Shown: in pieces, positions 12,332-34,597 of the stretch
Layout: each line of letters opens with the position of its first letter
How positions within the stretch are numbered: the stretch's first letter is position 1
Position numbers and translations under genes: made by a program
From: a bacterium
GTDB lineage: Bacteria; Zhuqueibacterota; Zhuqueibacteria; Oceanimicrobiales; Oceanimicrobiaceae
Reading direction: 5' to 3'
Assembly (NCBI GenBank): GCA_046757165.1
Contig: JBHHXT010000036.1
Location: forward strand, 1-34,738
Length of the DNA: 34,738 nucleotides
Notes under the pieces: model-generated
The model's input: the letters and a program-made list of their open reading frames with translations, nothing else
Database searches by the model: none
Told to the model about the DNA's origin: nothing

Positions 12332-12436
12332 CCTTGTGGCACTCCTTTCCTTTGCTTTATTTTTTTCATCGCGTCATCGATGCGGGTTTTGGGGTATATC
12401 CTTTTTATCGCTTCATCACAATCGGTCTTTAGCCGG

Positions 12437-12557
12437 TTAGCGGAATTTCGCCAAAACTTAATATTCACAGATAACGAAAATGCTAATTTCTACTGAAATA
12501 TGACATTTTGTTGATCAGCGGCAAGCTCTTGTTGTCAAATTAGCGGAATTTCGCTAA
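12437..12557. promoter_or_regulatory. Two palindromic operator candidates TTAGCGGAATTTCGC(C/T)AA in the aceB/regulator divergent spacer
   Basis: Copies at 12437-12454 and 12540-12557, 17/18 identical, TTAGCG-N6-CGCTAA symmetry; each followed by an A-run and AATATTC. Confidence 0.7.
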
Positions 12558-12740
12558 AAAACAATATTCGCTTATTGCTATTGTACATAAACGGCGATGT
12601 TTTGCGGAGAGGTGAGAAAAGAAAAACGACTATTTTCGCTTTTGATGAAAATTCTTTCGATGTGCGGATTTATTCCTTATATTCTCTCCACCAGGGGGCA
12701 ACAACAGAATGTTGGTGAGATCATAGAGAAAGGGGCGTGT

Positions 12741-16497: not shown

Positions 16498-17025
16498 ATG
16501 AGCTTGACAAGGCATACACCAGGGGTTTTTGCTTCCACTATTTTGCTTGTGGCCTTACTTTTGTGCCCAAACCGGGAGGTGCTTAGCCAGGACCGGTACA
16601 TTGTCGGTGCCGGGGATCAGGAGCAAGGCCTTCAGATGATTGTGCATGTCATCGGAGAGGTGAGGAAGCCAGGCGAGTATCGTGTTCTTGATGGCACCAA
16701 CATCCTGGAGCTGTTTTCAAAAGCTGGAGGCCCGACTCAATTCTCAAAGCTCAGCGGCGTCACCATCAGCAGGATTAGGCATGGCGTCGCGGGCAACGGC
16801 CGCAACGGGAATGGCCGCCTCAAAACAGGGAACGACATCATCAGAGTAAACATAACTCATTATCTCAAGAAGACGAATGCAGCGCCACCGCCCCAGTTGA
16901 AACCAGGCGATGTTGTCTTCGTGCCGCGAAATGGGTGGAGCAAATGGAGGAACATCGCGACGATTGTTCGAGACGTCTCGGTAGGTATCAGCCTCTATTT
17001 GTTGTATCTGCGTGCCAGAGACTAA
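16498..17025 (+). CDS. SLBB-domain polysaccharide export protein (short Wza/OPX-like)
   Basis: Signal peptide; VHVIGEVRKPGEY..ELFSKAGG..LKPGDVVFVP; C-terminal amphipathic/hydrophobic helix; immediately upstream of wzc. Confidence 0.8.
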   Translation: MSLTRHTPGVFASTILLVALLLCPNREVLSQDRYIVGAGDQEQGLQMIVHVIGEVRKPGEYRVLDGTNILELFSKAGGPTQFSKLSGVTISRIRHGVAGNGRNGNGRLKTGNDIIRVNITHYLKKTNAAPPPQLKPGDVVFVPRNGWSKWRNIATIVRDVSVGISLYLLYLRARD

Positions 17026-17064: not shown

Positions 17065-19410
17065 ATGCAAAACAACGATAGCCAGCAAATTGTTGCGCTA
17101 ATCTCGAAGGTTTTCAATCGAAGGAAGCGGTTGGTGCTGTTTAGCATCGTCGGTATTCTCATCCCCATCGTCTTTTACAACCAGACCGCGACCCCGACCT
17201 ACCAGGCTTCAACCAGCCTGATTTTTGAGGAATTGACGAATCCGATCGCAAACTACAGTTATGACCTGTCACGTGAGATTCTGATTCAGAATCGTCTGGA
17301 AGAGATCAAGAGTCTGGCCTTCTCGGAGGACATCGTGAAGGCCCTGCCGGTCGAGACTTATGACAATTATCCGGTGCCGGAAGATGCCGGGCCGGATTTC
17401 GATCGTTTCGGCTACCTGAGTCAAAAGATCAATCGAAGCGTCAATGCGGTCTCGATTCGCGGGTCGAATATCATTCAAATTGTCGTTGAGAGCGATGATC
17501 CGGCGCTGTGCCGCGACCTTGCCAATACGGCGGCCCAGGTGTTTCAGGACAGAATGTACAAGGTTAAACACGAAGGCGTCAGAGGGGTTCGTTCCTTCAT
17601 CGAAGAGCAGCTCACACGAGCGAAGCGACAGTTGAACCGGACAGAGGAAGAGCTGAGACAATTCAAAGAGCATAACAAGATCATCTCCATCGATAAGGAA
17701 TCCCAGGGGTTGCTCAGGAGAAGAACAGAAGCCGAGGTGCTCTACAATTCGGTCAGGTCAAGCCGCGAATCTGTTCAGGAACGGTTGAAAACGATCGAGA
17801 AAAAGCTGCATCTGCAAAAGCAGGATTTGGTGCCTTCCATTACAGACATCGCGACCCCCTATACCCAGAAACTGAAAGAGAAGCTGATCATGCTGCAGGG
17901 CCAGTTTACAGACTTGAGGTTGCAAGGCTACGGGCTCGAGCATCCCAAGATGACGCAACTGCAGAATGAGATTAGCGAAACGAAGAAAAATTTGACCAGT
18001 GAGGCACTAAAAGTCGCCAAGAGTGAGAATATCATCGATCCTATCACTCAGATCGAGAAATCCGTGAACGATTCCTATACTCTGCAGGTCGAACTCGAAG
18101 CGCTAAAGGCGCAGGAAGCGGCCCTGAGACGGACCATCGACGATTATGAAACCAAGCTGGCCACGCTTCCAGAAAAGGAGTATGTCCTGGCAAGGCTGAC
18201 CAGGGAAAAGGAAGTCACGGAGCAAAATTACATGATGCTCTTGAAAAAACATGAGGAGGCCAGAATCTCCGAAGCGGAAAAGCTTGCCAGCATCAGAATC
18301 ATAGATACGGCGCGCAAGCCAGAGGAGCCCATCGCCCCGCGCAAGAAAGTCAACTTTGCTATCGGTTTGGTCCTGGGTCTGTTGGTCGGGTTTGGGCTGG
18401 CCTTTATCAAGGAAGTCAGCCATAACTCGCTGGATTCCACCGAGGAGCTGGAACGGGTGACCGGCTGGCATGTCCTGGCGGCAATACCCGTGATCGAGAA
18501 TTCCACCGGCAGCAAAATGGGCTTGCACAGCCGCGCCACCAATGGCAGCTCGAAAAGCCCAATGATCAAACGGAGTCTCATTACGGGCAGTAACCCAAAG
18601 ACGGGCATCGCCGAAACCTACAGAATGCTGCGCACCAATTTGCAGTTTCTGGGCCTGGGCCAGAAGTTCAAGACCATTCTGGTCACCAGTGTCGGACCGG
18701 ACGAGGGCAAGTCAACGACCATGACCAACCTTGGAATTACTCTGGCCAAGATGGAGCAAAAAGTCTTGATTGTGGATTCAGATTTGAGAAAACCTCAGCT
18801 CCACGCTCTTTTCGACCTGGACAAAGAGCCGGGGTTGAGCGACCTGTTGGTTTATCACAGCGCGATGAAGGAAGATTTCTCTCCCATGGAAAATGAGTCA
18901 CCGCTTCTGGGCGATGGCTTCAAAGGTCAGGAGCTGGGAGACCTGGTCGATAATTTCTCTGACTTCGTGATGAACGACAACTTCTTGTCCAAAATCAAGA
19001 ACCTTCCCGGCCTAAGCAATCTGAATATCCTCAACAGTTCTCTGATCGAAGCCGTTCAGTCAACGCATGTTGAGAATCTGAAGGTGTTGACAAGTGGCAA
19101 GCAGTTGAAGAACCCCAGCGAAACCATAGCCACGGTTTCTCTGAAGGCTTTGTTAGACGAACTCAAGAACAAATTCAACGTCGTGCTCATCGATTCGGCG
19201 CCGCTGCTGCTGGTTCCGGAAACCATGATGATCTCCTCCCTGGTTGACGGCGTCATTTTCGTCGTAGATTCCCAACGGTACAACCAGGAGATGTTGATGA
19301 AAGCGAAGAATCTGCTACAAAAGGCCAACGCCAATGTCATCGGCGCCGTGCTGAACAACATCGAAATCAATAACAGGGAAAAGAACAATTATTACTATTA
19401 CGAAGCCTGA
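17065..19410 (+). CDS. wzc: Polysaccharide co-polymerase / tyrosine autokinase (Wzc/GumC-type)
   Basis: Two TM segments flanking a coiled coil; PEEPIAPRK; ETYRMLRTNL; Walker A GPDEGKST; VDSDLRKP; VLIDSAP; C-terminal YYYY cluster. Confidence 0.93.
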   Translation: MQNNDSQQIVALISKVFNRRKRLVLFSIVGILIPIVFYNQTATPTYQASTSLIFEELTNPIANYSYDLSREILIQNRLEEIKSLAFSEDIVKALPVETYDNYPVPEDAGPDFDRFGYLSQKINRSVNAVSIRGSNIIQIVVESDDPALCRDLANTAAQVFQDRMYKVKHEGVRGVRSFIEEQLTRAKRQLNRTEEELRQFKEHNKIISIDKESQGLLRRRTEAEVLYNSVRSSRESVQERLKTIEKKLHLQKQDLVPSITDIATPYTQKLKEKLIMLQGQFTDLRLQGYGLEHPKMTQLQNEISETKKNLTSEALKVAKSENIIDPITQIEKSVNDSYTLQVELEALKAQEAALRRTIDDYETKLATLPEKEYVLARLTREKEVTEQNYMMLLKKHEEARISEAEKLASIRIIDTARKPEEPIAPRKKVNFAIGLVLGLLVGFGLAFIKEVSHNSLDSTEELERVTGWHVLAAIPVIENSTGSKMGLHSRATNGSSKSPMIKRSLITGSNPKTGIAETYRMLRTNLQFLGLGQKFKTILVTSVGPDEGKSTTMTNLGITLAKMEQKVLIVDSDLRKPQLHALFDLDKEPGLSDLLVYHSAMKEDFSPMENESPLLGDGFKGQELGDLVDNFSDFVMNDNFLSKIKNLPGLSNLNILNSSLIEAVQSTHVENLKVLTSGKQLKNPSETIATVSLKALLDELKNKFNVVLIDSAPLLLVPETMMISSLVDGVIFVVDSQRYNQEMLMKAKNLLQKANANVIGAVLNNIEINNREKNNYYYYEA

Positions 19411-19527: not shown

Positions 19528-20199
19528 ATGGATATTTCACCCTGGTTAGTCATCGCTTTATCTAGCATAATCTTGCTGTCTGTCTTCTTGGTGTTGGCAA
19601 AAAAGAAGGATTCTGGAAGCGGGGTCAGGACGGTTATGTCGGAGCTGCAGCTCGGGGCCGTGCCGACCTATCGCAGCACGTTGGATAAGCTATCCAATGA
19701 GCTGGCGCGGGTTCGGCGCTACAACCGGCCGCTGTCCATGGTTGTCCTGAGGCTAGAAAGCGACCAACTCCTCATCGATCTGAAACGCAGCCTGGTGGCG
19801 GAAACGGGCAACGGTGGCGTCGAGTCCTATAACCAGGTGATGCAAACCATTCAATTGGTCTTCTCTCTGGTGGGGTCCATCCTGAAAGAGTCGTTGCGCG
19901 AAAGTGATATCGCCACCTACGATGTCTCCAACAATCAATACATCATCATGCTGCCAGAGTCCAACCGGGAGCAGGCTGCCCTGACCGTGACAAGGCTCAA
20001 GAGACTTCTGTTCAAGCGAACGGCCGGTCACCTGGTGGCGGGCCTCGCCGAGTTCCCAACCGACGGACTGATCATCGACGACCTGGTGAAGGGCGCGGTT
20101 GCGGCCTGCAACAAGACCAATGGCGAGCTCCTGGTCAACAAAGGGGCCAAAGAGACAGAACTGACATCAGAGCAAGACAAAGATGATGAAGAGTCGTAG
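19528..20199 (+). CDS. Membrane-anchored degenerate GGDEF-domain protein retaining an RxxD I-site
   Basis: N-terminal TM; ELARVRRYNRPLSMVVL..LRESDIATYDVSNNQYIIMLPE..GLAEFPTDG..DDLV fits the GGDEF fold, but the signature is replaced by VSNNQ. Confidence 0.75.
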   Translation: MDISPWLVIALSSIILLSVFLVLAKKKDSGSGVRTVMSELQLGAVPTYRSTLDKLSNELARVRRYNRPLSMVVLRLESDQLLIDLKRSLVAETGNGGVESYNQVMQTIQLVFSLVGSILKESLRESDIATYDVSNNQYIIMLPESNREQAALTVTRLKRLLFKRTAGHLVAGLAEFPTDGLIIDDLVKGAVAACNKTNGELLVNKGAKETELTSEQDKDDEES

Positions 20200-20962
20200 A
20201 GTGCACTCTTTTGTTAGGGAGAGTAGCAAAACGGAGAGCAGGATAGTGAAGATAGAAAGTGCAAGAATAAGCCGGTCGGCGACCGCGGCGGCCATTGCCC
20301 TGGAACGCCCAAAAAGCAGGCCATGGTATGAGCATTATGCAGACAAGAGAATCCTCAGCCTGGAGAGCTACTTCAAGCTCAAGCGCGTTTTTGATATTGC
20401 ATTCTGCGTCGTCAGCCTGCCGGTGCTGGTACCGGTCATGCTCCTCTGCTATCTGGCGATCAAACTAGATTCTCCCGGCCCGGTGTTTTTCTTCCAAGAA
20501 AGGACAGGGCGAGGCGGGAAGCGGTTCAAGATGCATAAATTGCGCACCATGGTGAAGAACGCTGAAGAGCTGAAAGAAAAGTACATGCACTTGAACGAGC
20601 TCACCTACCCAGACTTCAAGATCAGTAACGATCCACGCATCACACGCGTGGGTCGGTTCCTGAGAAAAACCAGTCTGGATGAGCTGCCGCAGGTTTTCAA
20701 TGTCTTGCGGGGAGACATGACCCTGGTCGGACCACGCCCGACCTCGTTCAGCGCCAACACCTATCGACTCTGGCATACAGCGCGTCTGGAGGTCAAACCC
20801 GGCATGACTGGCCTGTGGCAAGTTTCCGGGCGCAATGAACTTGATTTTGACGACCGGTTGCGGCTTGACATCGCCTACCTGCGCAACCAGTGTTTTGGCC
20901 TGGATTTCCAGATTCTTCTACGAACCGTCGGATCAGTCTTCCATGGCCGTGGGGCAAATTGA
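20183..20962 (+). CDS. Priming polyprenyl-phosphate sugar-1-phosphate transferase (Bac_transf)
   Basis: KRVFDI, SPGPVFFFQERTG, KLRTM, DPRITRVGRFLRKTSLDELPQ, GDMTLVGPRP, KPGMTGLWQVSGR. Confidence 0.95.
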   Translation: MMKSRRVHSFVRESSKTESRIVKIESARISRSATAAAIALERPKSRPWYEHYADKRILSLESYFKLKRVFDIAFCVVSLPVLVPVMLLCYLAIKLDSPGPVFFFQERTGRGGKRFKMHKLRTMVKNAEELKEKYMHLNELTYPDFKISNDPRITRVGRFLRKTSLDELPQVFNVLRGDMTLVGPRPTSFSANTYRLWHTARLEVKPGMTGLWQVSGRNELDFDDRLRLDIAYLRNQCFGLDFQILLRTVGSVFHGRGAN

Positions 20963-22210: not shown

Positions 22211-23173
22211 ATGCGAGTTCTTATTGCCAGCTCAATCGATGAGCGTGCGATTACAAAAATGCGAGAAAAGCACGATGTCACGTGCCATTTTAATGCGACC
22301 GCAGAGATATTGAAGGAGGTCATCCCGGACCGCGAGGTTTTGATCTTTCGCAGCGGCGTGCATATCGCTGCCGATATCATGGCTTGCGCGCCGGAGTTGA
22401 AGTTGATCATCCGCGCCGGGTGTGGTCTGGACAACGTCGATGTCGAGTACGCCCGCGGGCGGGGCATCGAGCTGCATACCATACCCCAGCCCGCCTCCTT
22501 TTCCGTCTCAGAAATGACATTTGCGCTCATGCTGGGCGTGGCGCGTCGAATCCTGGAGGCGGATGAATCCAGGCGTGCCGGACACTGGATCAAAAACCAG
22601 CTTAACGGACGCCTGCTCCATGGCAAAACGCTCGGGATTATCGGCATGGGCAACATCGGCAGCCGGGTCGGCCAACTTGGCGTCTCTTTTGGCATGCGTG
22701 TGTTAGGATGTGTCGAGCACCCCTCTCCGGCGCGCGCCGAGGCCTTCAAGTTGAAGAATTTGGAGCTCACCACCTTCGAGCGGGTGGTTTCCGAGGCGGA
22801 TTTTCTGACCGTGCACGTGCCCAGGAAAGCATCGACGCGCAATCTCGTCAATGCCGGGGCCCTGGCAAAGATGAAGCAGGACTCGATCCTGGTCAACATC
22901 GCCCGCGGCGGCGTTCTGGATGAGAAGGCGCTCTACCATGAGCTGACGCACGGCACCCGTCTTCTCGGGGCTGCCCTGGATGTGCACGAACAAGAAGGCG
23001 AGGGCAAGCTCTCGCCGTTCAGAGAGATGAAAAACGTCATTTTGACCCCTCATATTGGCTCGATGACCGTCGATACCTATAAGGACATGGGCCAGCGGAT
23101 TGTGAAAATTTTTGACGACTTTGTTGAGAAGTCCGAAAGCCGTTCAGCGCAGGAAACGCTAATCGCCGGCTGA
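22211..23173 (+). CDS. D-isomer-specific 2-hydroxyacid dehydrogenase (SerA-like, no ACT domain); candidate phosphonopyruvate reductase
   Basis: RAGCGLDNVD, GIIGMGNIG Rossmann motif, NIARGG, LDVHEQE, TPHIG catalytic Arg/Glu/His; adjacent to pepM. Confidence 0.85.
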   Translation: MRVLIASSIDERAITKMREKHDVTCHFNATAEILKEVIPDREVLIFRSGVHIAADIMACAPELKLIIRAGCGLDNVDVEYARGRGIELHTIPQPASFSVSEMTFALMLGVARRILEADESRRAGHWIKNQLNGRLLHGKTLGIIGMGNIGSRVGQLGVSFGMRVLGCVEHPSPARAEAFKLKNLELTTFERVVSEADFLTVHVPRKASTRNLVNAGALAKMKQDSILVNIARGGVLDEKALYHELTHGTRLLGAALDVHEQEGEGKLSPFREMKNVILTPHIGSMTVDTYKDMGQRIVKIFDDFVEKSESRSAQETLIAG

Positions 23174-23203
23174 ACGTCTGCTGGGCAAGTTTGATTCATT
23201 CTT

Positions 23204-23234
23204 ACCTTCCAGCGCCGCTGGAAGGTTTTCTTAT
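23204..23234 (+). terminator. Hairpin with U-tract between the dehydrogenase and pepM
   Basis: accttccagc-gcc-gctggaaggt followed by tttcttat. Confidence 0.45.
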
Positions 23235-23330
23235 GTGACCGACTGCCTGGCAGGGGGCACATTCTGTCGGGGCGCATGGTCTAACCAAATGGATTTACTC
23301 AAGTAGCTTAGCAAGGAGCACGAGACTACC

Positions 23331-24215
23331 ATGAATAAGGCAACCCAAAAAAGAGAACTGTTGCGACAGGGGCTGACCGGAGACAAGCCGATCACTGCGG
23401 TCGGAGCACACGACGCCATGAGCGCACAAATGATCGATACTGACGGTTTCGAGGCCGTGTGGGTGAGCGGCTTTGGTGTTTCGACCATGGCCTATGCGGT
23501 TCCGGACGCCAACCTGGTCACTATGACCGAGGCCCTGGACGCGGCCGTGCGCATGGATGCCGCCATCACCATTCCGGTGGTCGCAGATTGTGACAACGGC
23601 TTTGGCGGCCTGGCCAATGTCGTTCGGACGGTAAGAGCGTACGAGCGTGCCGGTATTGCCGGCATTTGCATCGAGGACAATCATTTCCCCAAGCGCAACA
23701 GCCTGTACCTGGGTAATTCCAAACGCGAGTTGATTCCGCTGGAAGAACAGGCCCGCCGCATCCGTGCGGGCAAGGATGCCCAGGAATCGGATGAGTTCGT
23801 CTTCATCGCACGCGTCGAGTCTCTCATCGCGGGCCACGGCGTGGCAGACGCGCTGCGACGGGCCGATGCCTATGTCAGGGCCGGCGCGGACGCCATTCTG
23901 ATTCACTCCAAAGACAAAACGTTGGGCGAGATAGAAGGGTTTCTGGCAGAGTGGCAGGGAGGCGCCCCACTCGTTTGTGTGCCGACGCTCTTCCCCGATT
24001 TTACCGTGCAAGAGCTGCATGAGAAAGGCTTCCAGATGATCATCCTGGCCAATCAACTGATGCGCGCTTCGGTCAAGGCCATGGAAGAGACACTCGCTAC
24101 CCTCAAACGCGAGCGCAAGGCCGCCGCGGTCGACGGCTCCATCGCACCGGTCAATTACATCTTCGATCTGGTGAAAACCAGGGAGCTGATCGCTTTAGAA
24201 GACGAGATAAAATAG
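23331..24215 (+). CDS. pepM: Phosphoenolpyruvate mutase (C-P bond formation), stand-alone, variant motif EDNHFPKRNS
   Basis: ICL/PEPM fold: WVSGFGVS, PDAN, VADCDNGFG, IEDNHFPKRNSL, FIARVESLIAG, ILIHSK, VPT, ILANQLMRAS. The PKxNS loop and IHS motif are PepM-type, not lyase-type (KCGH). Confidence 0.85.
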   Translation: MNKATQKRELLRQGLTGDKPITAVGAHDAMSAQMIDTDGFEAVWVSGFGVSTMAYAVPDANLVTMTEALDAAVRMDAAITIPVVADCDNGFGGLANVVRTVRAYERAGIAGICIEDNHFPKRNSLYLGNSKRELIPLEEQARRIRAGKDAQESDEFVFIARVESLIAGHGVADALRRADAYVRAGADAILIHSKDKTLGEIEGFLAEWQGGAPLVCVPTLFPDFTVQELHEKGFQMIILANQLMRASVKAMEETLATLKRERKAAAVDGSIAPVNYIFDLVKTRELIALEDEIK

Positions 24216-24272: not shown

Positions 24273-24941
24273 ATGGACATGACCAATATTCTGAAAATCG
24301 ATCTGAGTCCGGCTCAGGTGATTCTGAGCTTCCTCATCGCGTTTGCGCTGGGGTTTATGTGGGCGACCGTATACCGCAAGACGCACAGCGGCGTTGCTTA
24401 CACCCGGTCGTTTTTCATGACTCTGCTGCTGATTCCATCCATCGTTGCCATGGTGATGATGGCCATCGGCAGCAACGTTGCCCTGTCACTCGGCCTGGTT
24501 GGTTCGCTTTCAGTGATTCGTTTCAGAACGGTGATCAAAGACACCAAGGACATGACCTTTTTGTTTCTCTCGATTGGCATCGGTCTATGCTGTGGCGCGA
24601 ATGCGTGGATGGTCGCCATCTCCGGAACCGTCATCATCTCGCTGATCACGATCATCATGTCCAGGGTGGGACACGACCAGGCGGGATCGGCTGACTACAT
24701 TCTCATCTTCCGCTCCTATGAGAAAGAGCCATGGGAAAAAATCAACCCGGAAGCGCAATCCCTGCTTTCCTGGAAACAGCTCCGCGGAGCCACAGACATC
24801 GACCAGGGAAAGGATTTCGAGTACACCTACAGCGTTCGCCTGGCCTCGAAGGCCACGCCTGAACGCATCGTCAGCGAGCTGAGCAATGGCGTCATTCGCC
24901 AGGTTACCTTGATCACTCCGGAGAACCACCTTGAGCTCTGA
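24273..24941 (+). CDS. DUF4956-family membrane protein
   Basis: Several TM helices with signature SLGLVGSLSVIRFRTVIKDTKDMTFLFLSIGIGLCCG and a small soluble C-terminal domain. Confidence 0.85.
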   Translation: MDMTNILKIDLSPAQVILSFLIAFALGFMWATVYRKTHSGVAYTRSFFMTLLLIPSIVAMVMMAIGSNVALSLGLVGSLSVIRFRTVIKDTKDMTFLFLSIGIGLCCGANAWMVAISGTVIISLITIIMSRVGHDQAGSADYILIFRSYEKEPWEKINPEAQSLLSWKQLRGATDIDQGKDFEYTYSVRLASKATPERIVSELSNGVIRQVTLITPENHLEL

Positions 24942-25725
24942 GGTCGCCAGCGATGGCGGTACGGCGCTCACCAGCCGGATGATCCTGTTCCGCCGCCGCG
25001 AAATCAAATACCTGATCGATAGAACGACTCGAACTGCCCTGACCCGGGACTTGCAGGCGTTCATGCGGCCGGATGCCCATGCGAACAGTGCCGACGGCTA
25101 CATCGTGCGCAGCCTGTACTTCGATACCACGGATTACTTGGCTTACCATGAGAAGCTTGCAGGCACGGCTGCACGCCACAAGCTGCGCATCCGAGCCTAT
25201 GGCGAGGACCCGAGACAGGCCGCAATTACCAGGCTGGAGGTCAAGTCCCGTTTCTTGAGCTTCATTCACAAAATAACGGTCGACATCCCTGTGACCCAAT
25301 ACCCGCTGCTCGAGCCGGCCATCCTGGGCAAAACCTTGCCGCCAAACGACCTTCTTGACAACAGCGACATCTCGAAAGAGTTTTTTCGAATTCAGCGCCA
25401 GTACAATATGGTGCCGAAGGTGCTCTTGCAATACCGGCGGCAGGCGTTTGAGCGAGCGGAACTGAAACGGGTGCGCGTCAATTTCGACGACCAACTGGTG
25501 GCCTCCAGAAACCTGGCGCTCCTCGATCCTCTGGTCGCGCCGCGGAGCTTGCTCAAGTACGGCACCTCTATCTTTGAAATCAAAGTGGACGGCGACATGC
25601 CTTTCTGGCTGCACCAATTGATCAGCAAATACAACCTGCAGGATCAGGCGTTCAGCAAGTTTACCAACGCCATCAGGAGCGAAGCCAGGTTTTCGACCTT
25701 TCACCGTGCCAGCGATTTGAACTGA
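24931..25725 (+). CDS. VTC (polyphosphate polymerase / triphosphate tunnel metalloenzyme) domain protein
   Basis: RREIKY, VRSLYFDT, RHKLRIRAY, LEVKSR, YRRQAF, RVNFD, IFEIK, FSKF. Alternative start ATG 24979. Confidence 0.88.
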   Translation: MSSEVASDGGTALTSRMILFRRREIKYLIDRTTRTALTRDLQAFMRPDAHANSADGYIVRSLYFDTTDYLAYHEKLAGTAARHKLRIRAYGEDPRQAAITRLEVKSRFLSFIHKITVDIPVTQYPLLEPAILGKTLPPNDLLDNSDISKEFFRIQRQYNMVPKVLLQYRRQAFERAELKRVRVNFDDQLVASRNLALLDPLVAPRSLLKYGTSIFEIKVDGDMPFWLHQLISKYNLQDQAFSKFTNAIRSEARFSTFHRASDLN

Positions 25726-25737
25726 GACAGGGACGCC

Positions 25738-28700
25738 GTGCTCAAGCTAAAGAATAAGAAACGGGTCAAGAAAGTTCTCCGCCGGGCTCACAGTCCGGTG
25801 CGCTGGATTTGGCCCAAAATGTCCGATGCGCTCATCGGTATCTTCTGCTTTTTCCTGATCATTTTTGCCCTGTTGACCTATTCGACGCGCTTGTCCGAGT
25901 ACACCAGCAAGTTGGTGACGGGGAACAAATACCTCTCTCTGCTCGATGGCTTTTTCAATCCTTTTCGCAACAAACACCTGCTGCTGAAATCCGGCCTGCC
26001 CATTTATGACTTGAAAATCAAACATCAGCGGTATGCCATTATCGAAGACGTTATCAAGAAGGCGAAGAAGCAGGGTTGGATGAGTGATGACCTCAAGGTT
26101 TGGGCCAATGCACAGTTTATCCATGATGGCGAAATGTACAATGTGAAAGTGCGCGTGCGTGGCGACCTGCCGCGGCACTGGAGCGGGCCAAAACGGTCCT
26201 ACCGCATCAAGTTCGGCAAACGCAAGATCATCGGAGTCGATGGGCAGGTACGCGAAGAACCCATCTATTTCAACAGAACACGACAGATCAACTTGATCGT
26301 GCCCATCGACCGGGAGTTTATTCTGGCGAAATTCATCAACGAGTTGATGCAGGAACGGGGGGTGTTGGTGCCGCGCGATGATTTTGTCATTCTCCGCATC
26401 AACGGCGTCATTCAGGGGCTCTATTATCAGGTGGAGCATTTCGACAAGCCGTTGATGGCCTTCCGACGCCGGCCGGAGACCACGGTCTTTGCCCAAAACG
26501 ACCGCGCGAAACATTTCGAGCAGTATACAAAATACGGCACGCCTGCCACCTCAGATGCCAATTTTGAGATGGGCACGCTGCGCCGTTTGATCGACCGCAA
26601 CGGCGAGCTCGGCATGCAGGCGATGAAGGTGTTGTTCGAGTTTGTGCAAGACCCGAGGCCGGAAAAGTTCAGAAGAGCCCGCGCGGTCCTGGATTGGGAG
26701 AAGTACTTGACCTTCCGGGTCATCACCACGCTCTGCAACACCAACCACGTTCGCTTTGGCACCGACAATCTCCGCTTGTACTACGACCCCAGTCGCGGCC
26801 TGCTCGAGCCTATCCCTTGGGACGCGCATCTGCTGCGAATGCCGAAGGAGCCCGGCACGATCGATTTCTGGAACAACAAGGGGCCGGACGCGCTGCAGCG
26901 CGCCACTTTGTTGGACCCGGAGCTGAGATTGCAGCGCAACAGGATTCTCTGGTCGTTCATCGGCGATGGCGGAGATAGCCTGATGGCCAAATACACCAAA
27001 CTGCATGACAAGATTCGGCCCTTTGCCTGGGCAGACGTGTTGACGACGCCCATTCAAGGCCACAAGATGGATCAACACAAGAAGAACTTCGATTACAATG
27101 TGCGTCGCGCTTTCAAAGTCTTGAATAATTCCAACTGCAATTTTACCTATCGCCTCGAGGCCCCGGACCGCGCGGCCCTGGAGATGAATCTGCTCAATTT
27201 TAGCGGCGTGGAATGGCAAAGTGTCCAGCTCCGCGATTCTTTACTGTTTGTAGGCCGGTACGACCTTTATGAAGACCAAAACGACAACGGTCAATTGGAC
27301 GCAGAAGACCCCCTTGTGGCCACACAGAATGCCGACCACGACTGGTCCATCCGGTTCGAAATTGGCAAGCGCGTTTTTCCGCACCTCGAATATCGCGGTG
27401 ATTTTATCGCCGGGCGATACTGGGAGTTCTTTGACACCAAAACAAAACGGGCGCGCTATTTTCTGGTGGGCAAGTTGGCGCCGGAAAATCGTCACCCCAT
27501 CGTCTGGAGCCCGCCTGAAATTGCTGTGGCCGCGAAGAATCTGGTGACAGACTACCAGATCCCGTCTGCATTCATCAGCCAGCAGCAGCCGTTGCCGGAC
27601 AACATGACCGGCATCACGGCTTACGATGACTCGGACCCGTTCGACCTGGATGCGCAATTCTACACGCGCGAGGCGTTTCTTGCAAAGCATCCGCCGTTCG
27701 TGGCGAGCAAGGAGTCGGAGGGCGTTGAACTCCGCGGCGCGATTGAGATTTCGGAGTCGGTCATCATTCCGAAGGGGGTGCCCCTGCTCATCCGGCCCGG
27801 AGCGGACATTACGTTAAAACCCGGGGCGAACATCTTGATCTACAGCGGCCTCACCTGTATTGGAACGCCGCAAGATCGAATCCGGATTCACGGGGACGAA
27901 TCCGGGTTTCCCTTTGGCAGCGTAGCCGTTGTGCGTCCGCAAGCAAAGGTGGTGGTCAGATACACCGACTTCAGCGACGGTGGCCAGGCGCAAATCAATG
28001 GCATTCTGTTCACGGGCGGGTTTGCCGTGCACGAGGGAGACCTCGAGCTGGAGCACTGCACCTTCGATAAAATGCAAAGCGAAGACGGGCTGAACCTCAA
28101 GAACGGCCACATCGTGATGCGCCACTGCCGCTTTACCGCCAATGACAGCGATGCGGTCGATATCGACTTTGGAACCGGCATTGTTGAAAACTGTGAATTC
28201 CGAAATATCCACGGCGATGGCCTGGACATTTCCGGCTCCACCCTGCAGGTTTCGAGTTGTGTGTTTGAAAATGTCGTCGATAAGGGATTCAGCGTCGGGG
28301 AAAACTCCTCTCCGACCATTATCAACAGCCTGTTCAAGGGGTGTGACATTGGCATTTCTGCCAAGGACCTGTCCTTTGTCAGGGCTGCGAACTGCACGTT
28401 CGTCGAGAACAGGCTGGCAATTGAAGCCAAACGCAAAAAGCCGATGTTTGGTGGCGGGAGCGGCGAGGTGGTCAACTGTGTTTTCTCCGGCAATCAGGAG
28501 CTGCTAACGGAAGATTATTTTTCGAAAGGCAGGATGATAATCAAATCTTCCCTGAGTGATGTAACCACCGACTGGGAAGCAAGTAGAACGGCGAAGATTC
28601 AGTTTCTGGCTCCCGAGCAAAACAACTATGTGTTACATTCACAATCAATGCCAAGCGATGGATTTGCGATGACTTATCCCGAGTGGTTAAGTGGCCAGGG

Positions 28701-28755
28701 AAACGGCTTTTCGTTGCAACAACCCGGGATTTATAGTCTCTCGACAAATCGATAG
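25738..28755 (+). CDS. Membrane-anchored CotH-family kinase fused to a right-handed parallel beta-helix domain (1005 aa)
   Basis: N-terminal basic stretch plus TM; KVRVRGD..KRSYRIKF, GLYYQVEHFDK, DWEKYL..NTNH..DNLRLYYDP..EPIPWD; EF-hand-like DQNDNGQLDAED; C-terminal repeats DGLNLK/DAVDIDF/DGLDIS/DKGFSVGE/IGISAKD. Confidence 0.8.
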   Translation: MLKLKNKKRVKKVLRRAHSPVRWIWPKMSDALIGIFCFFLIIFALLTYSTRLSEYTSKLVTGNKYLSLLDGFFNPFRNKHLLLKSGLPIYDLKIKHQRYAIIEDVIKKAKKQGWMSDDLKVWANAQFIHDGEMYNVKVRVRGDLPRHWSGPKRSYRIKFGKRKIIGVDGQVREEPIYFNRTRQINLIVPIDREFILAKFINELMQERGVLVPRDDFVILRINGVIQGLYYQVEHFDKPLMAFRRRPETTVFAQNDRAKHFEQYTKYGTPATSDANFEMGTLRRLIDRNGELGMQAMKVLFEFVQDPRPEKFRRARAVLDWEKYLTFRVITTLCNTNHVRFGTDNLRLYYDPSRGLLEPIPWDAHLLRMPKEPGTIDFWNNKGPDALQRATLLDPELRLQRNRILWSFIGDGGDSLMAKYTKLHDKIRPFAWADVLTTPIQGHKMDQHKKNFDYNVRRAFKVLNNSNCNFTYRLEAPDRAALEMNLLNFSGVEWQSVQLRDSLLFVGRYDLYEDQNDNGQLDAEDPLVATQNADHDWSIRFEIGKRVFPHLEYRGDFIAGRYWEFFDTKTKRARYFLVGKLAPENRHPIVWSPPEIAVAAKNLVTDYQIPSAFISQQQPLPDNMTGITAYDDSDPFDLDAQFYTREAFLAKHPPFVASKESEGVELRGAIEISESVIIPKGVPLLIRPGADITLKPGANILIYSGLTCIGTPQDRIRIHGDESGFPFGSVAVVRPQAKVVVRYTDFSDGGQAQINGILFTGGFAVHEGDLELEHCTFDKMQSEDGLNLKNGHIVMRHCRFTANDSDAVDIDFGTGIVENCEFRNIHGDGLDISGSTLQVSSCVFENVVDKGFSVGENSSPTIINSLFKGCDIGISAKDLSFVRAANCTFVENRLAIEAKRKKPMFGGGSGEVVNCVFSGNQELLTEDYFSKGRMIIKSSLSDVTTDWEASRTAKIQFLAPEQNNYVLHSQSMPSDGFAMTYPEWLSGQGNGFSLQQPGIYSLSTNR

Positions 28756-28836
28756 AGCATCGTAAGATCGACAACCTGTAAACGGATTTGACGAATTTCC
28801 CTCGCGGGTGATCATTCATTGAGGCGGGAGAACGCT

Positions 28837-30117
28837 ATGAACAATATCAAGAGCGGTGGGAGCAAACCTTATGCAGTCGTGGTCGGTTTAGATTGCATGA
28901 CCGGTTTGCAGACGGTTCGGATTCTGGCACAGCACGGCGTGTCGGTTATCGCCATCGCCAAAAACCCGAACCACTTCACGTGTTACACCAAAGTTTGCGA
29001 GAAGATTCTCATTGCTGACACCTCCAGCGACGAGTTCATAGAAACCCTGGAGGGTCTGTCCGCGACGCTTGACAGCAAGGCGGTTCTGTTTCCCTGCACG
29101 GACATGAGCGTTCTTCAGATCTCGCGCAGCCGCGAACGGCTGGCACAGGGCTACCACATCGCGCTTCCGGAGTCCGGAGTGGTCGAGATGCTCATGGACA
29201 AGATCGCGTTCATCAAGTTTGCGAAAAATGAAGGGCTGCCCATTCCGACGACCTTCTTTCTCGAAAAACGGCAGGATTTGGAAGAAGCCGCCGACCAGCT
29301 CTCCTACCCGTGCATCTTGAAGCCGCCGATGAAATCACCGCGGTGGGAGAAGAATACGAAGAAGAAAGTCTACAAAATTACGGACAAAGCCGACCTCTTC
29401 CAGACTTATGATATGTGCTCAGAGTGGGCGGATATTCTGATGGTACAGGACTGCGTGCAAGGCACGGACGCCAATTTGTATTCCTGCAACTGCTATTTCG
29501 ACCGGAATGTCGAGCCCCTGGTGAGCTTCATTGCGCGCAAATTGCGCCAGTGGCCGCCCGAGATTGGCACGAGCTGTCTGGGAGAGGAAGTGTTCAATGA
29601 TGTTGTGCTGGAAACAAGCCTGGCGCTCTTCCGCAAAGTCGGGTATCACGGGCTTGGCTACGTTGAAATGAAAAAAGACCAGCGCACCGGCAAGCATTTC
29701 ATCATCGAGCCGAACATCGGACGGCCGACAGGCCGTTCTGCGATTGCGGAAGCGGGGGGCGTGGAACTGCTCTACACCAAGTACTGTGACCTGGTTGGCT
29801 TGCCCCTGCCCGAAAACCGGGTGCAGAGGTACACGGGGGTCAAATGGATCTACCTGCGCCGTGATCTGCAGTCGGCCTATTTCTACTGGCGGCGAGGTGA
29901 TTTGAGCCTGCTGGACTGGTGGCGCACGCTGCGTGGCCGCAAAGGGTACGCGGTGTTCTCCATCTCAGACCCGGTGCCCTTCCTGGCTGACTTTTTCAAC
30001 AAGCTTGCAGACCGGTTTTTTTCACGCAAGACAGCGACCGTGCCCGGGGCAGCAAGAAGCGCGACGCAATCTCCGCCAGCTAAGCAGGAAGAAGAAAAAT
30101 CCGAGGCGGCTGTATGA
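28837..30117 (+). CDS. ATP-grasp carboxylate-amine ligase (D-aspartate-ligase-like)
   Basis: LFPCTD, LMDKIAF..LPIPTT, YPCILKP, RKLRQWP..G, GYVEMKKD..GKHFIIEPN (ExN motif), SISDPVPF. ATG 28837 follows gggag. Confidence 0.85.
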   Translation: MNNIKSGGSKPYAVVVGLDCMTGLQTVRILAQHGVSVIAIAKNPNHFTCYTKVCEKILIADTSSDEFIETLEGLSATLDSKAVLFPCTDMSVLQISRSRERLAQGYHIALPESGVVEMLMDKIAFIKFAKNEGLPIPTTFFLEKRQDLEEAADQLSYPCILKPPMKSPRWEKNTKKKVYKITDKADLFQTYDMCSEWADILMVQDCVQGTDANLYSCNCYFDRNVEPLVSFIARKLRQWPPEIGTSCLGEEVFNDVVLETSLALFRKVGYHGLGYVEMKKDQRTGKHFIIEPNIGRPTGRSAIAEAGGVELLYTKYCDLVGLPLPENRVQRYTGVKWIYLRRDLQSAYFYWRRGDLSLLDWWRTLRGRKGYAVFSISDPVPFLADFFNKLADRFFSRKTATVPGAARSATQSPPAKQEEEKSEAAV

Positions 30118-31437: not shown

Positions 31438-32067
31438 ATGCATCGGAGATCTGCTTTGCAAAACTTTGATAACAACGGTATCTCTAGATTGGCTCAGGAA
31501 ATCGAGCTCAGCATCGCAACCAAGAAACGTGTGTTGCGAGACGGGATGTCGCGTATCCATGAAATCACTCTGATTGTAAGAACGGCATTGGAAAATGGCC
31601 ACAAGCTCTTGCTCTTTGGCAACGGTGGCAGCGCTGCGGACTCGCAACACATCGCCGCTGAGTTCGTCAGCAAGTTCAATATGGAACGCAATGCGCTTCC
31701 GGCCATTGCCTTGACGACGGACACATCGATTCTCACCGCGATTGCAAACGACTACGACTTCAAGTTTGTTTTCGCCCGGCAGATCGAGGCGTTAGGGCAG
31801 CCTGGCGATGTGGCTTTGGGGATTAGTACAAGCGGAAATTCACCCAACGTCATCAAGGGTGTCGAGACGGCGAAAGAAAAGGGGCTGACCACGGTCGGCT
31901 TCACAGGACAAAACGGCGGCAAGCTCAAGCATGCCGTCGACTACTGCTTTCGAGTGCCGTCGGACAGCACCCCTCGCATTCAGGAAGTTCACATCACCGT
32001 GGCCCACGCTATCTGCGGCGTGATCGAGAAAGAGCTCTGCTCGGAAGCGGTCACCACGTCCTTGTAA
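31438..32067 (+). CDS. gmhA: D-sedoheptulose-7-phosphate isomerase
   Basis: GNGGSAADSQHIAAEF, LTTDTSILTAIANDY, FARQIEALG, ISTSGNSPN, TPRIQEVHI. Confidence 0.95.
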   Translation: MHRRSALQNFDNNGISRLAQEIELSIATKKRVLRDGMSRIHEITLIVRTALENGHKLLLFGNGGSAADSQHIAAEFVSKFNMERNALPAIALTTDTSILTAIANDYDFKFVFARQIEALGQPGDVALGISTSGNSPNVIKGVETAKEKGLTTVGFTGQNGGKLKHAVDYCFRVPSDSTPRIQEVHITVAHAICGVIEKELCSEAVTTSL

Positions 32068-32114: not shown

Positions 32115-33140
32115 ATGCCTCATAGTCACTCACTGAGAATGGCCGGTTTTACCACCTTATTGGTCTGTTTGACGTTATTTCTGCTCAGGTTGGTTGTCCA
32201 TCTCCCCAGGCAATCGCTCTTGCTGCTCACGGGCAGCTTCTTTCTGATAGCGATTCCGTTCTGGATGGCAAGATGGGGGAGAAGCGTGGGCCGCGCGCAG
32301 ATTGCGCAGGTTCTCTTGCTGTGGAGCCTCTTAACCGGAGTGTTCTTGTTTAGTGTCTACCGGGTGGACAGGGCCGGCTGGAACTGGTTCAGGCTGACCG
32401 GATATGACGTCACGCTGGCTGAGCATCACCCCCGGGCTGCCAACTTGTCGATCGAAGAGTTCATCCGACGGCATGAGATGTTTTCTGTTGCGCCGGATGG
32501 CAGCAACAGAGTTCTCCTGCCGAGAGGCGAACATGAGATTGACGCGACCATCGTCGTTCCGAAAGGCGTGAGGCTGGTTATCGAGCCCGGCGCCGTCTTG
32601 CGCTTTGGCGCGGGCTGTTCGTTGATTTCTTACAGCCCCATCAGCGCCATCGGCACGGCGCAGGAAGCCATCATTTTCACCGCAAAGCGCAAGTTGCTCA
32701 AGTGGGGCGTCGTCGGCGTGGTGCAAACTGAAAAGTCGTATTTTCATCGCGTTAGATTCGAGCACGCCCGAAGTGCCAGGGTGAACGGCATCATTTTTTT
32801 TGCCGGCCTTTCCGCTATTGAGACGGACATTGAAATTACCGATAGTCAGTTTATAGACATGTTCGGTAAAGATGCGGTGAATATCAGATATGCCGATGCC
32901 CTGGTGCGGGATAACTTGTTTGAGAATGCAACCAAAGACGGCATAGATATGGACGGCGGTACGGGTGAAATCAGCCGGAATGTGTTCATGAATTGCCAGG
33001 ACGAAGGCATCGACCTGAGCGAGAACTTCGCCATCAGGGTTTTTGACAACAAGATCCAGGACCGTCGAGGGGGCCGGATCGAGGCGGAAAACAACCTCTC
33101 GGAGATCAGGGCCGCGAATTCGTTCGGATATTTGCCTTAG
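32115..33140 (+). CDS. Membrane-anchored right-handed beta-helix protein, paralogous to the C-terminal domain of the CotH fusion
   Basis: About 3 N-terminal TMs; IVVPKGVRLVIEPGA, VNGIIFFAG, DAVNI, DGIDMDGGTG, EGIDLS align by eye with the CotH protein C-terminus. Confidence 0.75.
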   Translation: MPHSHSLRMAGFTTLLVCLTLFLLRLVVHLPRQSLLLLTGSFFLIAIPFWMARWGRSVGRAQIAQVLLLWSLLTGVFLFSVYRVDRAGWNWFRLTGYDVTLAEHHPRAANLSIEEFIRRHEMFSVAPDGSNRVLLPRGEHEIDATIVVPKGVRLVIEPGAVLRFGAGCSLISYSPISAIGTAQEAIIFTAKRKLLKWGVVGVVQTEKSYFHRVRFEHARSARVNGIIFFAGLSAIETDIEITDSQFIDMFGKDAVNIRYADALVRDNLFENATKDGIDMDGGTGEISRNVFMNCQDEGIDLSENFAIRVFDNKIQDRRGGRIEAENNLSEIRAANSFGYLP

Positions 33141-33304: not shown

Positions 33305-33338
33305 TTAGACTACTTAGATGACGGGAAGGGTTTCAATT

Positions 33339-34547: not shown

Positions 34548-34597
34548 CCATAGCAACATGAATCTAACCCAGCGCGGAAAAACAGCAAATGAATGGA

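What the first reader, a model, noticed from the sequence alone, without database searches (positions are those of the whole stretch)
22211..24215. Decarboxylase-independent phosphonate route: PepM pulled by a 2-hydroxyacid dehydrogenase (phosphonolactate)
Seen: an ACT-less D-2-hydroxyacid dehydrogenase directly precedes pepM. The window has no Ppd, phosphonomethylmalate synthase, aminotransferase or cytidylyltransferase, and PepM carries no nucleotidyltransferase fusion. Known: the PepM equilibrium favours PEP and needs a coupling enzyme; in the valinophos pathway NAD(P)H reduction of phosphonopyruvate to phosphonolactate (VlpB) does this. Inference: phosphonolactate is the building block and is destined for a polysaccharide rather than a small molecule.
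Basis: partly seen in the sequence, partly recalled or inferred. Interest (0 to 1): 0.8.

Follow-up and report, generated by a model that had tools for sequence, protein, structure and literature searches.

The report
Phosphonolactate cassette in a polysaccharide operon
An uncultured bacterium carries, inside a surface-polysaccharide operon, an enzyme pair that probably makes the carbon-phosphorus acid phosphonolactate without the usual decarboxylase, plus ATP-using enzymes that may fasten it to the sugar polymer; its key enzyme has a one-residue change that standard phosphonate surveys filter out.

Summary
Confirmed: a 320-aa D-2-hydroxyacid dehydrogenase (22211-23173) lies 157 bp before pepM (23331-24215). 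The 99.98%-complete genome has no Ppd, and a separate SerA candidate lies elsewhere. The dehydrogenase groups with VlpB-like enzymes of vlpABCDE-type clusters (100/96), and grouping it with SerA is rejected (p-AU 0.001). One relative replaces it with a sulfolactate-dehydrogenase-like enzyme. PnPy-to-phosphonolactate reduction is therefore likely, though not shown biochemically.

(1) The PepM motif is EDN-x5-NS (120 of 120 top homologues), which EDK-x5-NS filters discard. (2) The conserved unit includes a D-aspartate-ligase-like ATP-grasp (28819-30117), often with HprK-like and thymidylate-kinase-like kinases. (3) By synteny the operon continues on two other contigs, with Wzx, Wzy and a nucleotidyltransferase-thymidylate-kinase fusion. 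So 'no nucleotidyltransferase' holds only for cytidylyltransferase families. The combination echoes fosfazinomycin's ATP-grasp/kinase/nucleotidyltransferase activation, but ATP-grasp carboxylate activation is nearly as likely.

The branch is known (valinophos); I found no phosphonolactate glycan in the library searched. This scan reported the module before on other DNA (e1-3185454, e1-2849198).

The parts
22211..23173 (+). D-2-hydroxyacid dehydrogenase, VlpB-like; proposed phosphonopyruvate reductase (catalytic R232/E262/H281 present)
   Evidence: Pfam; sister to VlpB-like enzymes 100/96; SerA grouping rejected p-AU 0.001; shared RSG, G[CS]V[ED] and TPHIG-x-M motifs
23204..23226 (+). 10-bp hairpin followed by TTTCTT in the dehydrogenase-pepM gap; terminator-like, not conserved
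   Evidence: no match elsewhere in the genome or in fetched loci
23331..24215 (+). PEP mutase, EDN-x5-NS variant, stand-alone
   Evidence: TIGR02320 270 bits vs TIGR02321 218; best PDB hit a PEP mutase; 17 of the 18 checked positions that are invariant in 47 EDK-type PepMs are kept, only K-to-N at 117 differs
28819..30117 (+). ATP-grasp enzyme, homologues named D-aspartate ligase / carboxylate-amine ligase; proposed next enzyme after phosphonolactate
   Evidence: in 16 of 23 related loci, 6 misses cut by contig ends
30114..31319 (+). HprK-related P-loop kinase-like protein; role unknown
   Evidence: weak TIGR04355 and PF07475, Atlas; in 11 of 23 related loci
24273..24941 (+). DUF4956 membrane protein (accessory, close relatives only)
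24931..25725 (+). VTC-domain protein (accessory)
25738..28755 (+). CotH-kinase plus beta-helix protein (accessory)
16498..17025 (+). SLBB polysaccharide export protein; first gene of the operon
17065..19410 (+). Wzc-type chain-length determinant / tyrosine autokinase
   Evidence: TIGR01007 over cut-off
19528..20199 (+). degenerate GGDEF-like protein
   Evidence: weak hits only
20183..20962 (+). priming polyprenyl-phosphate sugar transferase
   Evidence: PF02397
20890..22158 (+). GT2 glycosyltransferase
31438..32067 (+). GmhA-like sedoheptulose-7-phosphate isomerase
32115..33140 (+). membrane-anchored beta-helix protein
33318..34547 (+). GT4 glycosyltransferase, last gene before the contig end. 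By synteny the operon continues on G000 contigs C297 and C252: NTase-TMK fusion, Wzx, two APH-like kinases, Wzy, TMK-like kinase, GT4

Best explanation
The pair is the entry of a Ppd-independent phosphonate pathway that decorates a Wzy-dependent surface polysaccharide. Step 1 (inferred, ~85%): the EDN-type PepM isomerises PEP to phosphonopyruvate. Step 2 (inferred from phylogeny and gene swaps, ~80%): the VlpB-like dehydrogenase reduces it with NAD(P)H to phosphonolactate, pulling the unfavourable equilibrium. Step 3 (inferred from co-conservation): the D-aspartate-ligase-like ATP-grasp activates phosphonolactate, which is not reduced further to DHPPA. Step 4 (inferred from context): the activated unit goes onto the repeat unit or polymer made by this operon. 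For this locus I slightly favour activation on phosphorus (about 0.3 absolute). The ATP-grasp would phosphorylate the phosphonate, which sits where D-aspartate's beta-carboxylate does. A thymidylate-kinase-like enzyme would add a second phosphate. The nucleotidyltransferase domain would then use this NTP surrogate to form a phosphonate ester on a sugar hydroxyl, as FzmF/FzmK/FzmU do for fosfazinomycin. Carboxylate activation is the close alternative (first rival). Shown here: gene content, conservation, trees and folds. Not shown: any activity or product.
For: No ppd in the genome. Among 19 pepM-bearing same-phylum genomes, the 3 with ppd have no dehydrogenase beside pepM, while 14 of the 16 without ppd do. 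Dehydrogenase directly upstream in 21 of 23 related loci, 1 cut by the contig end. In the remaining one (L028) an Ldh_2 enzyme, best hit L-sulfolactate dehydrogenase, sits in the cassette instead. The dehydrogenase clade is sister to enzymes of vlpABCDE-like clusters. A separate SerA candidate (428 vs 262 bits) sits beside a class V aminotransferase. The same dehydrogenase plus ATP-grasp flank canonical EDK-type PepMs in 6 genomes, so the two PepM types are interchangeable in the cassette. NTase-TMK fusion in the continuation: PF14907 on close homologues; N-domain aligns with MenT1 (Z 12.8, rmsd 3.3, 164 residues) and ANT(2'') (Z 10.3, rmsd 3.7, 149 residues). 4 of 4 fosfazinomycin-like clusters carry a thymidylate-kinase-family kinase that matches our profile. 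Fzm chemistry from PMC13622209.
Against: No biochemistry. The VlpB references are identified by gene content only, two sequences, 37-38% identical, against 34% for SerA. The EDN PepM fails the EDKx5NS motif and scores under the TIGR02320 cut-off (270 < 319.55). The ATP-grasp is not tied to pepM: related copies sit with HprK- and TMK-like genes but no pepM nearby in L058, L087 and L088, and G144 (98% complete) has no PepM match at all. The ATP-grasp profile does not match the FzmF-position enzyme, which is biotin-carboxylase-like. The NTase domain was not found beside pepM in 4 of 4 Actinomycetota genomes tested. Four EDK-type loci (L090-L093) have no TMK or NTase within the fetched stretch; two of them have MBOAT, DUF1574 and asparagine-synthetase genes instead. 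G000's own NTase domain does not score against PF14907. The link C36-C297-C252 rests on synteny, not on an assembled join.
Confidence: 0.6

Rival explanations
1. Same first two steps, but the ATP-grasp activates the carboxylate of phosphonolactate (acyl phosphate) and joins it as an amide to an amino sugar or linker amine, or hands it to an acyltransferase. The TMK-, HprK- and APH-like kinases serve other glycan modifications. This is a variant inside the best explanation's 0.6, not an alternative to it.
For: Canonical ATP-grasp chemistry (PMC11867202 describes carboxylate activation for the phosphonopeptide ligases). The dehydrogenase-PepM-ATP-grasp trio is more constant than TMK or NTase. 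L090 and L093 pair the trio with MBOAT and DUF1574 genes. No sequence link to the FzmF-position enzyme.
Against: A TMK-like kinase lies within about 6 kb of pepM in 7 of the 12 Actinomycetota-titled loci by tblastn (8 counting L024), and in the extended KSB1 loci. This operon also carries an NTase-TMK fusion, which this model leaves without a role. No MBOAT in the window or the reconstructed continuation.
Confidence: 0.25
2. Phosphonolactate is made but goes into a small molecule, lipid or peptide (valinophos- or phosphonopeptide-like), and the cassette only rides in glycan operons.
For: The known phosphonolactate pathway ends in a small molecule through ATP-grasp ligases (PMC12723261). Some Actinomycetota loci have little glycan context (L029, L030, L032), and L026 has a condensation-carrier-thioesterase gene upstream.
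Against: In the window and its closest relatives the pair lies between a GT2 and further glycan genes on one strand. No PGK-like, semialdehyde-dehydrogenase or Fe-ADH gene lies in the locus; the genome's matches are on C12, C354, C83 and C285. Wzx, Wzy or glycosyltransferase genes also flank distant loci L019, L024, L026 and L028.
Confidence: 0.12
3. The EDN protein is not an active PEP mutase (it is a phosphonopyruvate hydrolase or acts on another substrate), or the dehydrogenase acts on a non-phosphonate keto acid, so no phosphonolactate is made.
For: Fails the motif used to define PepM (PMC6697681, PMC8942020, PMC12723261). Under the TIGR02320 cut-off, with TIGR02321 at 218 bits, and one source names a homologue 'phosphonopyruvate hydrolase'. 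G057 keeps the dehydrogenase but has lost pepM from the locus.
Against: The loop keeps K-x-N-S as in PepM, whereas the hydrolase structure has K-D-T-S. 22 of 23 below-cut-off loci from an actinomycete genus read EDKx5NS, so the cut-off is too strict. The same dehydrogenase/ATP-grasp pair flanks canonical PepMs. G057 has a canonical pepM on another contig and no ppd.
Confidence: 0.15
4. The dehydrogenase is an ordinary SerA or other housekeeping enzyme, and PepM is pulled by an unlinked aminotransferase or synthase.
For: Best NCBIfam and PDB hits are phosphoglycerate dehydrogenases. Generic aminotransferases and HMGL-like synthases elsewhere in the genome were not excluded.
Against: A better SerA candidate exists elsewhere. 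The AU test rejects monophyly with SerA. Linkage to pepM in 11 of 13 loci retrieved by the dehydrogenase alone.
Confidence: 0.05

Closest known systems
Valinophos pathway entry, VlpA (PepM) + VlpB (phosphonopyruvate reductase) (as described in PMC8942020, PMC12871164, PMC11867202; the primary JACS 2022 paper was not held)
   Same: pepM next to a PF02826 dehydrogenase, no ppd. The dehydrogenase is sister to enzymes of vlpABCDE-like clusters and shares their motifs.
   Different: No kinase/semialdehyde dehydrogenase/Fe-ADH trio for DHPPA in the locus. PepM is EDN-type. The setting is a Wzx/Wzy polysaccharide operon. Identity to the VlpB-like enzymes is only 37-38%.
Fosfazinomycin phosphonate activation, FzmF (ATP-grasp) / FzmK (kinase) / FzmU (nucleotidyltransferase) (PMC13622209)
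   Same: The same three enzyme classes are in the reconstructed operon. The kinase at the fzmK position of 4 fosfazinomycin-like clusters is thymidylate-kinase-family and matches our profile (E 2e-8 to 4e-6 in a small set).
   Different: The ATP-grasp belongs to a different subfamily (no profile match). NTase and kinase are fused. No RiPP precursor or RRE was looked for or seen. The acceptor would be a glycan. No Ppd.
AEP/HEP phosphonoglycans activated by PntC-type cytidylyltransferases (PF12804/PF01467; PMC6697681)
   Same: pepM inside a cell-surface glycan locus.
   Different: No ppd, no AEP transaminase, no PepM fusion. None of the genome's 15 PF12804 matches lies on C36, C297 or C252.
GCF 540 of Li & Horsman (Ppm flanked by thymidylate kinase and PF14907 nucleotidyltransferase; PMC8942020 section 18)
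   Same: PepM associated with TMK-like and PF14907-like genes; noted there as unclassified.
   Different: That set was filtered for EDKX5NS, and no dehydrogenase, ATP-grasp or glycan context is described for it.

Membership tests
PEP mutase (Ppm/PepM) | PF13714 match over at least 70% of the profile | tested here: met
   positions 6-238 of 240, E 3e-58
PEP mutase (Ppm/PepM) | EDKX5NS motif as used in published surveys | tested here: not met
   EDNHFPKRNS; 0 of 120 top homologues match EDKx5NS and 120 of 120 match EDNx5NS. By this criterion it is not a member; it is proposed to work like one.
PEP mutase (Ppm/PepM) | Active-site residues (metal-binding Asp/Glu, loop Lys-x-Asn-Ser, Arg, His; roles recalled from PepM structures) | tested here: met
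   W44, S46, D59, D86, D88, E115, D116, K121, N123, S124, R161, E163 and H192 are identical to the residues invariant in 47 EDK-type sequences; aligned with 1m1b and 5unc
PEP mutase (Ppm/PepM) | TIGR02320 score over the curated cut-off | tested here: inconclusive
   270.3 < 319.55, but 32 of 38 matching genomes of one actinomycete genus also fall under it, most with the canonical motif
PEP mutase (Ppm/PepM) | Catalyses PEP to phosphonopyruvate | not testable with these tools
   needs a coupled assay
Phosphonopyruvate hydrolase (PalA/Pph) | Loop K-D-T-S and TIGR02321 cut-off | tested here: not met
   loop is K-R-N-S; 217.8 < 374.4 bits
VlpB-type phosphonopyruvate reductase | PF02826 dehydrogenase encoded with ppm and without ppd | tested here: met
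   criterion from PMC8942020
VlpB-type phosphonopyruvate reductase | Groups with VlpB rather than SerA | tested here: inconclusive
   Groups (100/96) with two dehydrogenases from clusters that are vlp-like by gene content, and the SerA grouping is rejected. The characterised VlpB sequence itself was not available.
VlpB-type phosphonopyruvate reductase | NAD(P)H-dependent reduction of phosphonopyruvate | not testable with these tools
   needs an assay; cofactor preference unresolved (G-C-V-E in place of SerA's Y-D-P)
Valinophos/DHPPA pathway | vlpABCDE five-gene core | tested here: not met
   no PGK-like, semialdehyde-dehydrogenase or Fe-ADH gene in the window or its continuation
SerA (phosphoglycerate dehydrogenase) | TIGR01327 cut-off and monophyly with SerA | tested here: not met
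   262 < 454 bits (the genome's other candidate has 428); p-AU 0.00107
FzmF/FzmK/FzmU activation module | ATP-grasp, NMP-kinase-like kinase and nucleotidyltransferase in one pepM locus | tested here: met
   (the last two enzymes lie on contigs joined by synteny)
FzmF/FzmK/FzmU activation module | ATP-grasp homologous to FzmF | tested here: not met
   profile A2 gives no hit at E<=1 in four fosfazinomycin-like clusters whose ATP-grasp is biotin-carboxylase-like; FzmF identified by gene position only
FzmF/FzmK/FzmU activation module | Forms phosphonate-PPi and transfers the phosphonyl group | not testable with these tools
   needs 31P NMR
PntC-type (cytidylyl-activated) phosphonoglycan pathway | PF12804 or PF01467 fused to, or within about 5 genes of, ppm | tested here: not met

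The most novel reading that the evidence does not exclude
A widespread, survey-invisible lineage of PEP mutases (EDN-x5-NS) makes phosphonolactate and installs it on surface polysaccharide without any CMP/CDP intermediate. A D-aspartate-ligase-like ATP-grasp and a thymidylate-kinase-like enzyme turn it into a triphosphate mimic, and a nucleotidyltransferase fused to the kinase transfers the phosphonyl group to sugar. This would be a new phosphonoglycan head group, a second route of phosphonate conjugation, and an undercounted biological phosphonate source.
Probability: 0.25. Interest if true: 0.85.

Novelty: new variant of a known kind. Interest (0 to 1): 0.62.

Why it matters
How phosphonates are joined to glycans has not been reconstituted (PMC13622209 discussion), and cytidylyl activation is taken as the main logic (PMC6697681). 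This operon offers a small, testable enzyme set for a glycan pathway with neither Ppd nor a PntC-type cytidylyltransferase, and with phosphonolactate as a likely new head group. Separately, three published surveys require EDKX5NS. An active EDN lineage of at least 120 sequence clusters, with related loci in KSB1, Chloroflexota and Actinomycetota, would mean that counts of phosphonate producers are too low.

Tried and rejected
- Primary valinophos paper: not held, so VlpC/D/E families and VlpB kinetics are recalled or second-hand. The characterised VlpB sequence could not be obtained; stand-ins were found by gene content in G766 and G768.
- 'ACT-less' as a discriminator: rejected, because the genome's SerA candidate also lacks the domain.
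- TIGR02320 cut-off as a membership test: rejected after calibration.
- FzmF orthology of the ATP-grasp: not supported.
- FzmU-like PF14907 genes beside the four fosfazinomycin-like clusters: not found; matches were on other contigs or absent, so no direct NTase comparison was made.
- PDB sequence and fold searches for the ATP-grasp gave only generic ATP-grasp folds, 11-17% identity.
- Foldseek on the NTase-TMK model listed only thymidylate/nucleoside kinases in the rows shown; the NTase match came from the wide search. The N-domain was not folded alone.
- Contig-end overlaps cannot join C36 to C297: C36 ends in a dispersed repeat, and only the first 40 hit lines were printed.
- The intergenic hairpin is not conserved.
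- No RNA holder listed.
- The sequence look-up of earlier findings was empty, and the same-genome look-up returned four unrelated notes.
- Rows left out: 25 of 68 dehydrogenases were dropped from the careful tree as long branches or near-duplicates; the 68-row quick tree gave the same grouping, SH-aLRT 97.
- The first motif regex failed; the counts come from the two simple patterns in that call.
- Literature searches listed no paper on a phosphonolactate glycan or an EDN-type PepM. Most subscription journals are not in the library, and supplements of PMC8942020 (Figs S2-S4) and PMC13622209 were not read and may bear on this.
Full report
OBSERVATION. The window is the whole 34,738-base contig C36 of a 6.09-Mb, 531-contig genome rated 99.98% complete. 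Its closest named relatives are candidate division KSB1 MAGs. From 16498 to the contig end a single-strand operon encodes an SLBB export protein, Wzc, a degenerate GGDEF protein, a priming sugar transferase, a GT2, the dehydrogenase (22211-23173), PepM (23331-24215), DUF4956, VTC, CotH, an ATP-grasp, an HprK-like protein, GmhA, a beta-helix protein and a GT4. Upstream lie TonB receptors, the glyoxylate shunt, a regulator and molybdo-flavoenzyme subunits. None of 24 scanned ORFs matches a TPP enzyme, an aminotransferase, HMGL-like, PF12804 or PF01467.

NO PPD. TIGR03297 finds one 24.9-bit hit in the genome, which is acetolactate synthase, and tblastn with a relative's Ppd finds nothing. Among 167 genomes of the phylum, 19 besides G000 have a PepM match at E<=1e-45. 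Three have ppd over the cut-off, directly after pepM, with no dehydrogenase alongside. Of the 16 without ppd, 14 have the dehydrogenase directly before pepM. One of the other two is cut by a contig end. The other, G057, keeps the dehydrogenase in the glycan operon but has a canonical pepM on another contig. Kin are not independent, so this is a pattern and not a statistic. G058, found separately, has a ppd-type cluster as well as a truncated copy of this operon, so the two can coexist.

THE DEHYDROGENASE. It keeps the GxGxxG motif and the Arg232/Glu262/His281 triad (roles recalled). Its best curated hit is phosphoglycerate dehydrogenase, but at 262 bits against a cut-off of 454. The genome has a better candidate (428 bits, 326 aa, also ACT-less) next to a class V aminotransferase. 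To stand in for VlpB I screened 401 genomes of an actinomycete genus and found two loci with pepM followed by a PF02826 enzyme and no ppd. G766 has PepM, dehydrogenase, semialdehyde dehydrogenase, PGK-like and Fe-ADH genes, which fits the five-gene vlp core (families recalled). G768 has PepM, dehydrogenase and a PGK-like gene, with PF14907 and TMK-like genes upstream. In a 43-row tree the window's clade (23 rows, 100/99) is sister to these two (100/96), apart from SerA (100/99) and from the ppd-linked dehydrogenases. Both groups share R-S-G, G-[CS]-V-[ED] after the nucleotide-binding strand and T-P-H-I-G-x-M, where SerA has R-S-A, Y/F-D-P and T-P-H-L-G-A-S. Retrieval by the dehydrogenase alone gave 14 metagenome loci. 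Of the 13 at 44% or more, 11 are followed by pepM and 2 are cut off; the 28% one has none. Retrieval by PepM gave 23 loci at 66-87%: 21 have the dehydrogenase upstream and 1 is cut off. The last, L028, instead has an Ldh_2 enzyme within the cassette whose best hit is L-sulfolactate dehydrogenase. Replacement by an unrelated 2-oxoacid reductase argues that the reaction, not the fold, is what is kept.

THE MUTASE. The motif reads EDNHFPKRNS. All 120 listed top homologues have EDNx5NS and none has EDKx5NS. Published surveys require EDKX5NS: PMC8942020 (passages, first part of the text, sections 16 and 18 read), PMC6697681 (passages) and PMC12723261 (passages). They would discard this lineage. Of 26 positions checked, 18 are invariant in 47 EDK-type sequences, and the window protein keeps all but the motif lysine. 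The loop has Asn-Ser as in solved PEP mutases, where the hydrolase has Thr-Ser. The sub-cut-off TIGR02320 score is uninformative: 32 of 38 matching actinomycete genomes are also below it, and 22 of 23 such loci read EDKx5NS. The same dehydrogenase (53-55%) and ATP-grasp (55-65%) flank canonical EDK-type PepMs in six same-phylum genomes (L090-L095), and the dehydrogenase precedes EDK-type PepM in five metagenome loci. The two PepM types are thus interchangeable in one cassette. A sister group (EDN-x5-CS, 45-52%) lacks the dehydrogenase; three of its nine loci have split TPP-enzyme genes.

The ATP-grasp at 28819-30117 occurs in 16 of the 23 loci; six misses are at contig ends and one (L042) is real. 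The HprK-like gene is in 11 of 23 and a TMK-like kinase in 9 of 23 within the fetched flanks. Sources name ATP-grasp homologues D-aspartate ligase or carboxylate-amine ligase, and the model (pLDDT 90.7) matches only generic ATP-grasp folds. In G001, G057, G058 and G065 the GT4 that ends our contig is followed by a membrane protein, a 458-aa fusion, Wzx and an APH-like kinase (G002 likewise). G001 and G065 continue with Wzy, a second APH-like kinase, a TMK-like kinase and a GT4. G000 has these genes in this order on C297 and C252. The fusion's C-half is thymidylate-kinase-like. Its N-half has an invariant D-x-L..D pattern, several close homologues carry PF14907, and the model (pLDDT 93.3) aligns residues 18-203 with MenT1 (Z 12.8) and 15-189 with ANT(2'') (Z 10.3). 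The operon therefore has a nucleotidyltransferase fold, but not of the PntC families: none of 15 PF12804 matches is on the three contigs. No VlpC/D/E-type gene is in the locus.

MECHANISM. PepM favours PEP more than 500-fold and can be driven by a 2-hydroxyacid dehydrogenase to phosphonolactate (PMC12871164 passage). VlpB is used as a phosphonopyruvate reductase in coupled assays (PMC11867202 passage). I put phosphonolactate formation at about 0.8 and glycan attachment through the ATP-grasp at about 0.6. Two chemistries fit. In fosfazinomycin an ATP-grasp phosphorylates the phosphonic acid, a second kinase makes a triphosphate mimic, and a nucleotidyltransferase transfers the phosphonyl group (PMC13622209; abstract, introduction, results, discussion and legends read). 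Four clusters with fosfazinomycin-like gene order carry, at the eleventh position, a thymidylate-kinase-family kinase that matches our profile (gene order fully annotated for L180 only; PMC6133997 passages for gene functions). Phosphonolactate places its phosphonate where aspartate has the beta-carboxylate that D-aspartate ligase activates (recalled). Against this: our ATP-grasp does not match the FzmF-position enzyme, and the NTase domain was not found beside pepM in four Actinomycetota genomes. L090-L093 lack TMK and NTase in the fetched stretch, two having MBOAT-type acyl-transfer genes instead. ATP-grasp/HprK/TMK also occur without pepM nearby, including in G144, which has no PepM match. 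In the tree these pepM-less ATP-grasps nest among pepM-linked ones (quick tree), which suggests loss or supply from another locus but also shows the module is not strictly phosphonate-bound. I give phosphorus-side activation about 0.3 and carboxylate-side about 0.25.

NOVELTY. The PepM-plus-reductase branch is known, and Li & Horsman classify by it. The variant features are the EDN motif, stopping at phosphonolactate, the Wzy-type glycan setting and the activation enzymes. Seven library searches listed no paper on these; the primary valinophos paper was not held. The scan has noted the module twice on other genomes. Those notes agree with the reading I recorded before looking and are not independent evidence; their short texts do not mention the NTase-kinase fusion or the fosfazinomycin parallel.

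DATA CAVEATS. L019 (G003) and L042/L122/L126 (G172) come from genomes flagged unpublished. They contribute 2 of the 23 loci, the Chloroflexota genome example, the one real ATP-grasp absence and several tree rows, and no main conclusion depends on them. No activity, product or transcript was observed.

Noticed in passing
L034-L039, L043-L045: A sister PepM-like group (45-52% identity) with motif EDN-x5-CS and no dehydrogenase. Three loci have split TPP-enzyme (Ppd-like) genes, and L036 also has an NTP-transferase/CDP-alcohol transferase and a glycerophosphotransferase-like gene; possibly another lineage that motif filters miss.
   Followed up: partly
L156 (G768:C1:8157000-8176000): TMK-like kinase, PF14907 nucleotidyltransferase, unknown gene, PepM, VlpB-like dehydrogenase and PGK-like gene in a row, with a carbamoyltransferase nearby; an apparently different phosphonolactate-derived pathway.
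   Followed up: partly
L082 (G057:C9) and L102 (G057:C631): The operon is intact except that pepM is missing between the dehydrogenase and DUF4956. A canonical pepM lies on another contig behind an HprK-like gene and an ABC ATPase, and the genome has no ppd.
   Followed up: partly
window 24273-28755: A DUF4956-VTC-CotH triplet sits between pepM and the ATP-grasp only in the closest relatives. In other KSB1 loci a phytase-like beta-propeller gene occupies that place.
   Followed up: no
window 23204-23226: Terminator-like hairpin between the dehydrogenase and pepM, unique to this genome among fetched loci.
   Followed up: yes
window 34570-34738: The contig ends in a repeat of about 160 bp with many dispersed copies in the genome, which probably broke the assembly of this operon.
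   Followed up: partly
L090, L093 (and pepM-less L084, L086): The trio, or the ATP-grasp alone, sits next to MBOAT plus DUF1574/GDSL-like and asparagine-synthetase-like genes, suggesting acyl-type transfer in that sub-lineage.
   Followed up: partly
L040 / L070 (G161:C709): The pepM copy is in two pieces and has Cys in place of the loop Asn; a decayed gene or an assembly error.
   Followed up: no
window 9394-14252: Isocitrate lyase and malate synthase lie opposite a 551-aa HTH_3/IrrE-like regulator; the isocitrate lyase is the genome's only other PF13714 match.
   Followed up: no
window 16-9146: Three TonB-dependent receptors with carboxypeptidase-regulatory-like N-domains in a row.
   Followed up: no
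L143 (G621): An Ldh_2-family gene also lies directly before a canonical pepM-ppd pair in an actinomycete, so Ldh_2 beside pepM does not always mean a Ppd-free route.
   Followed up: no
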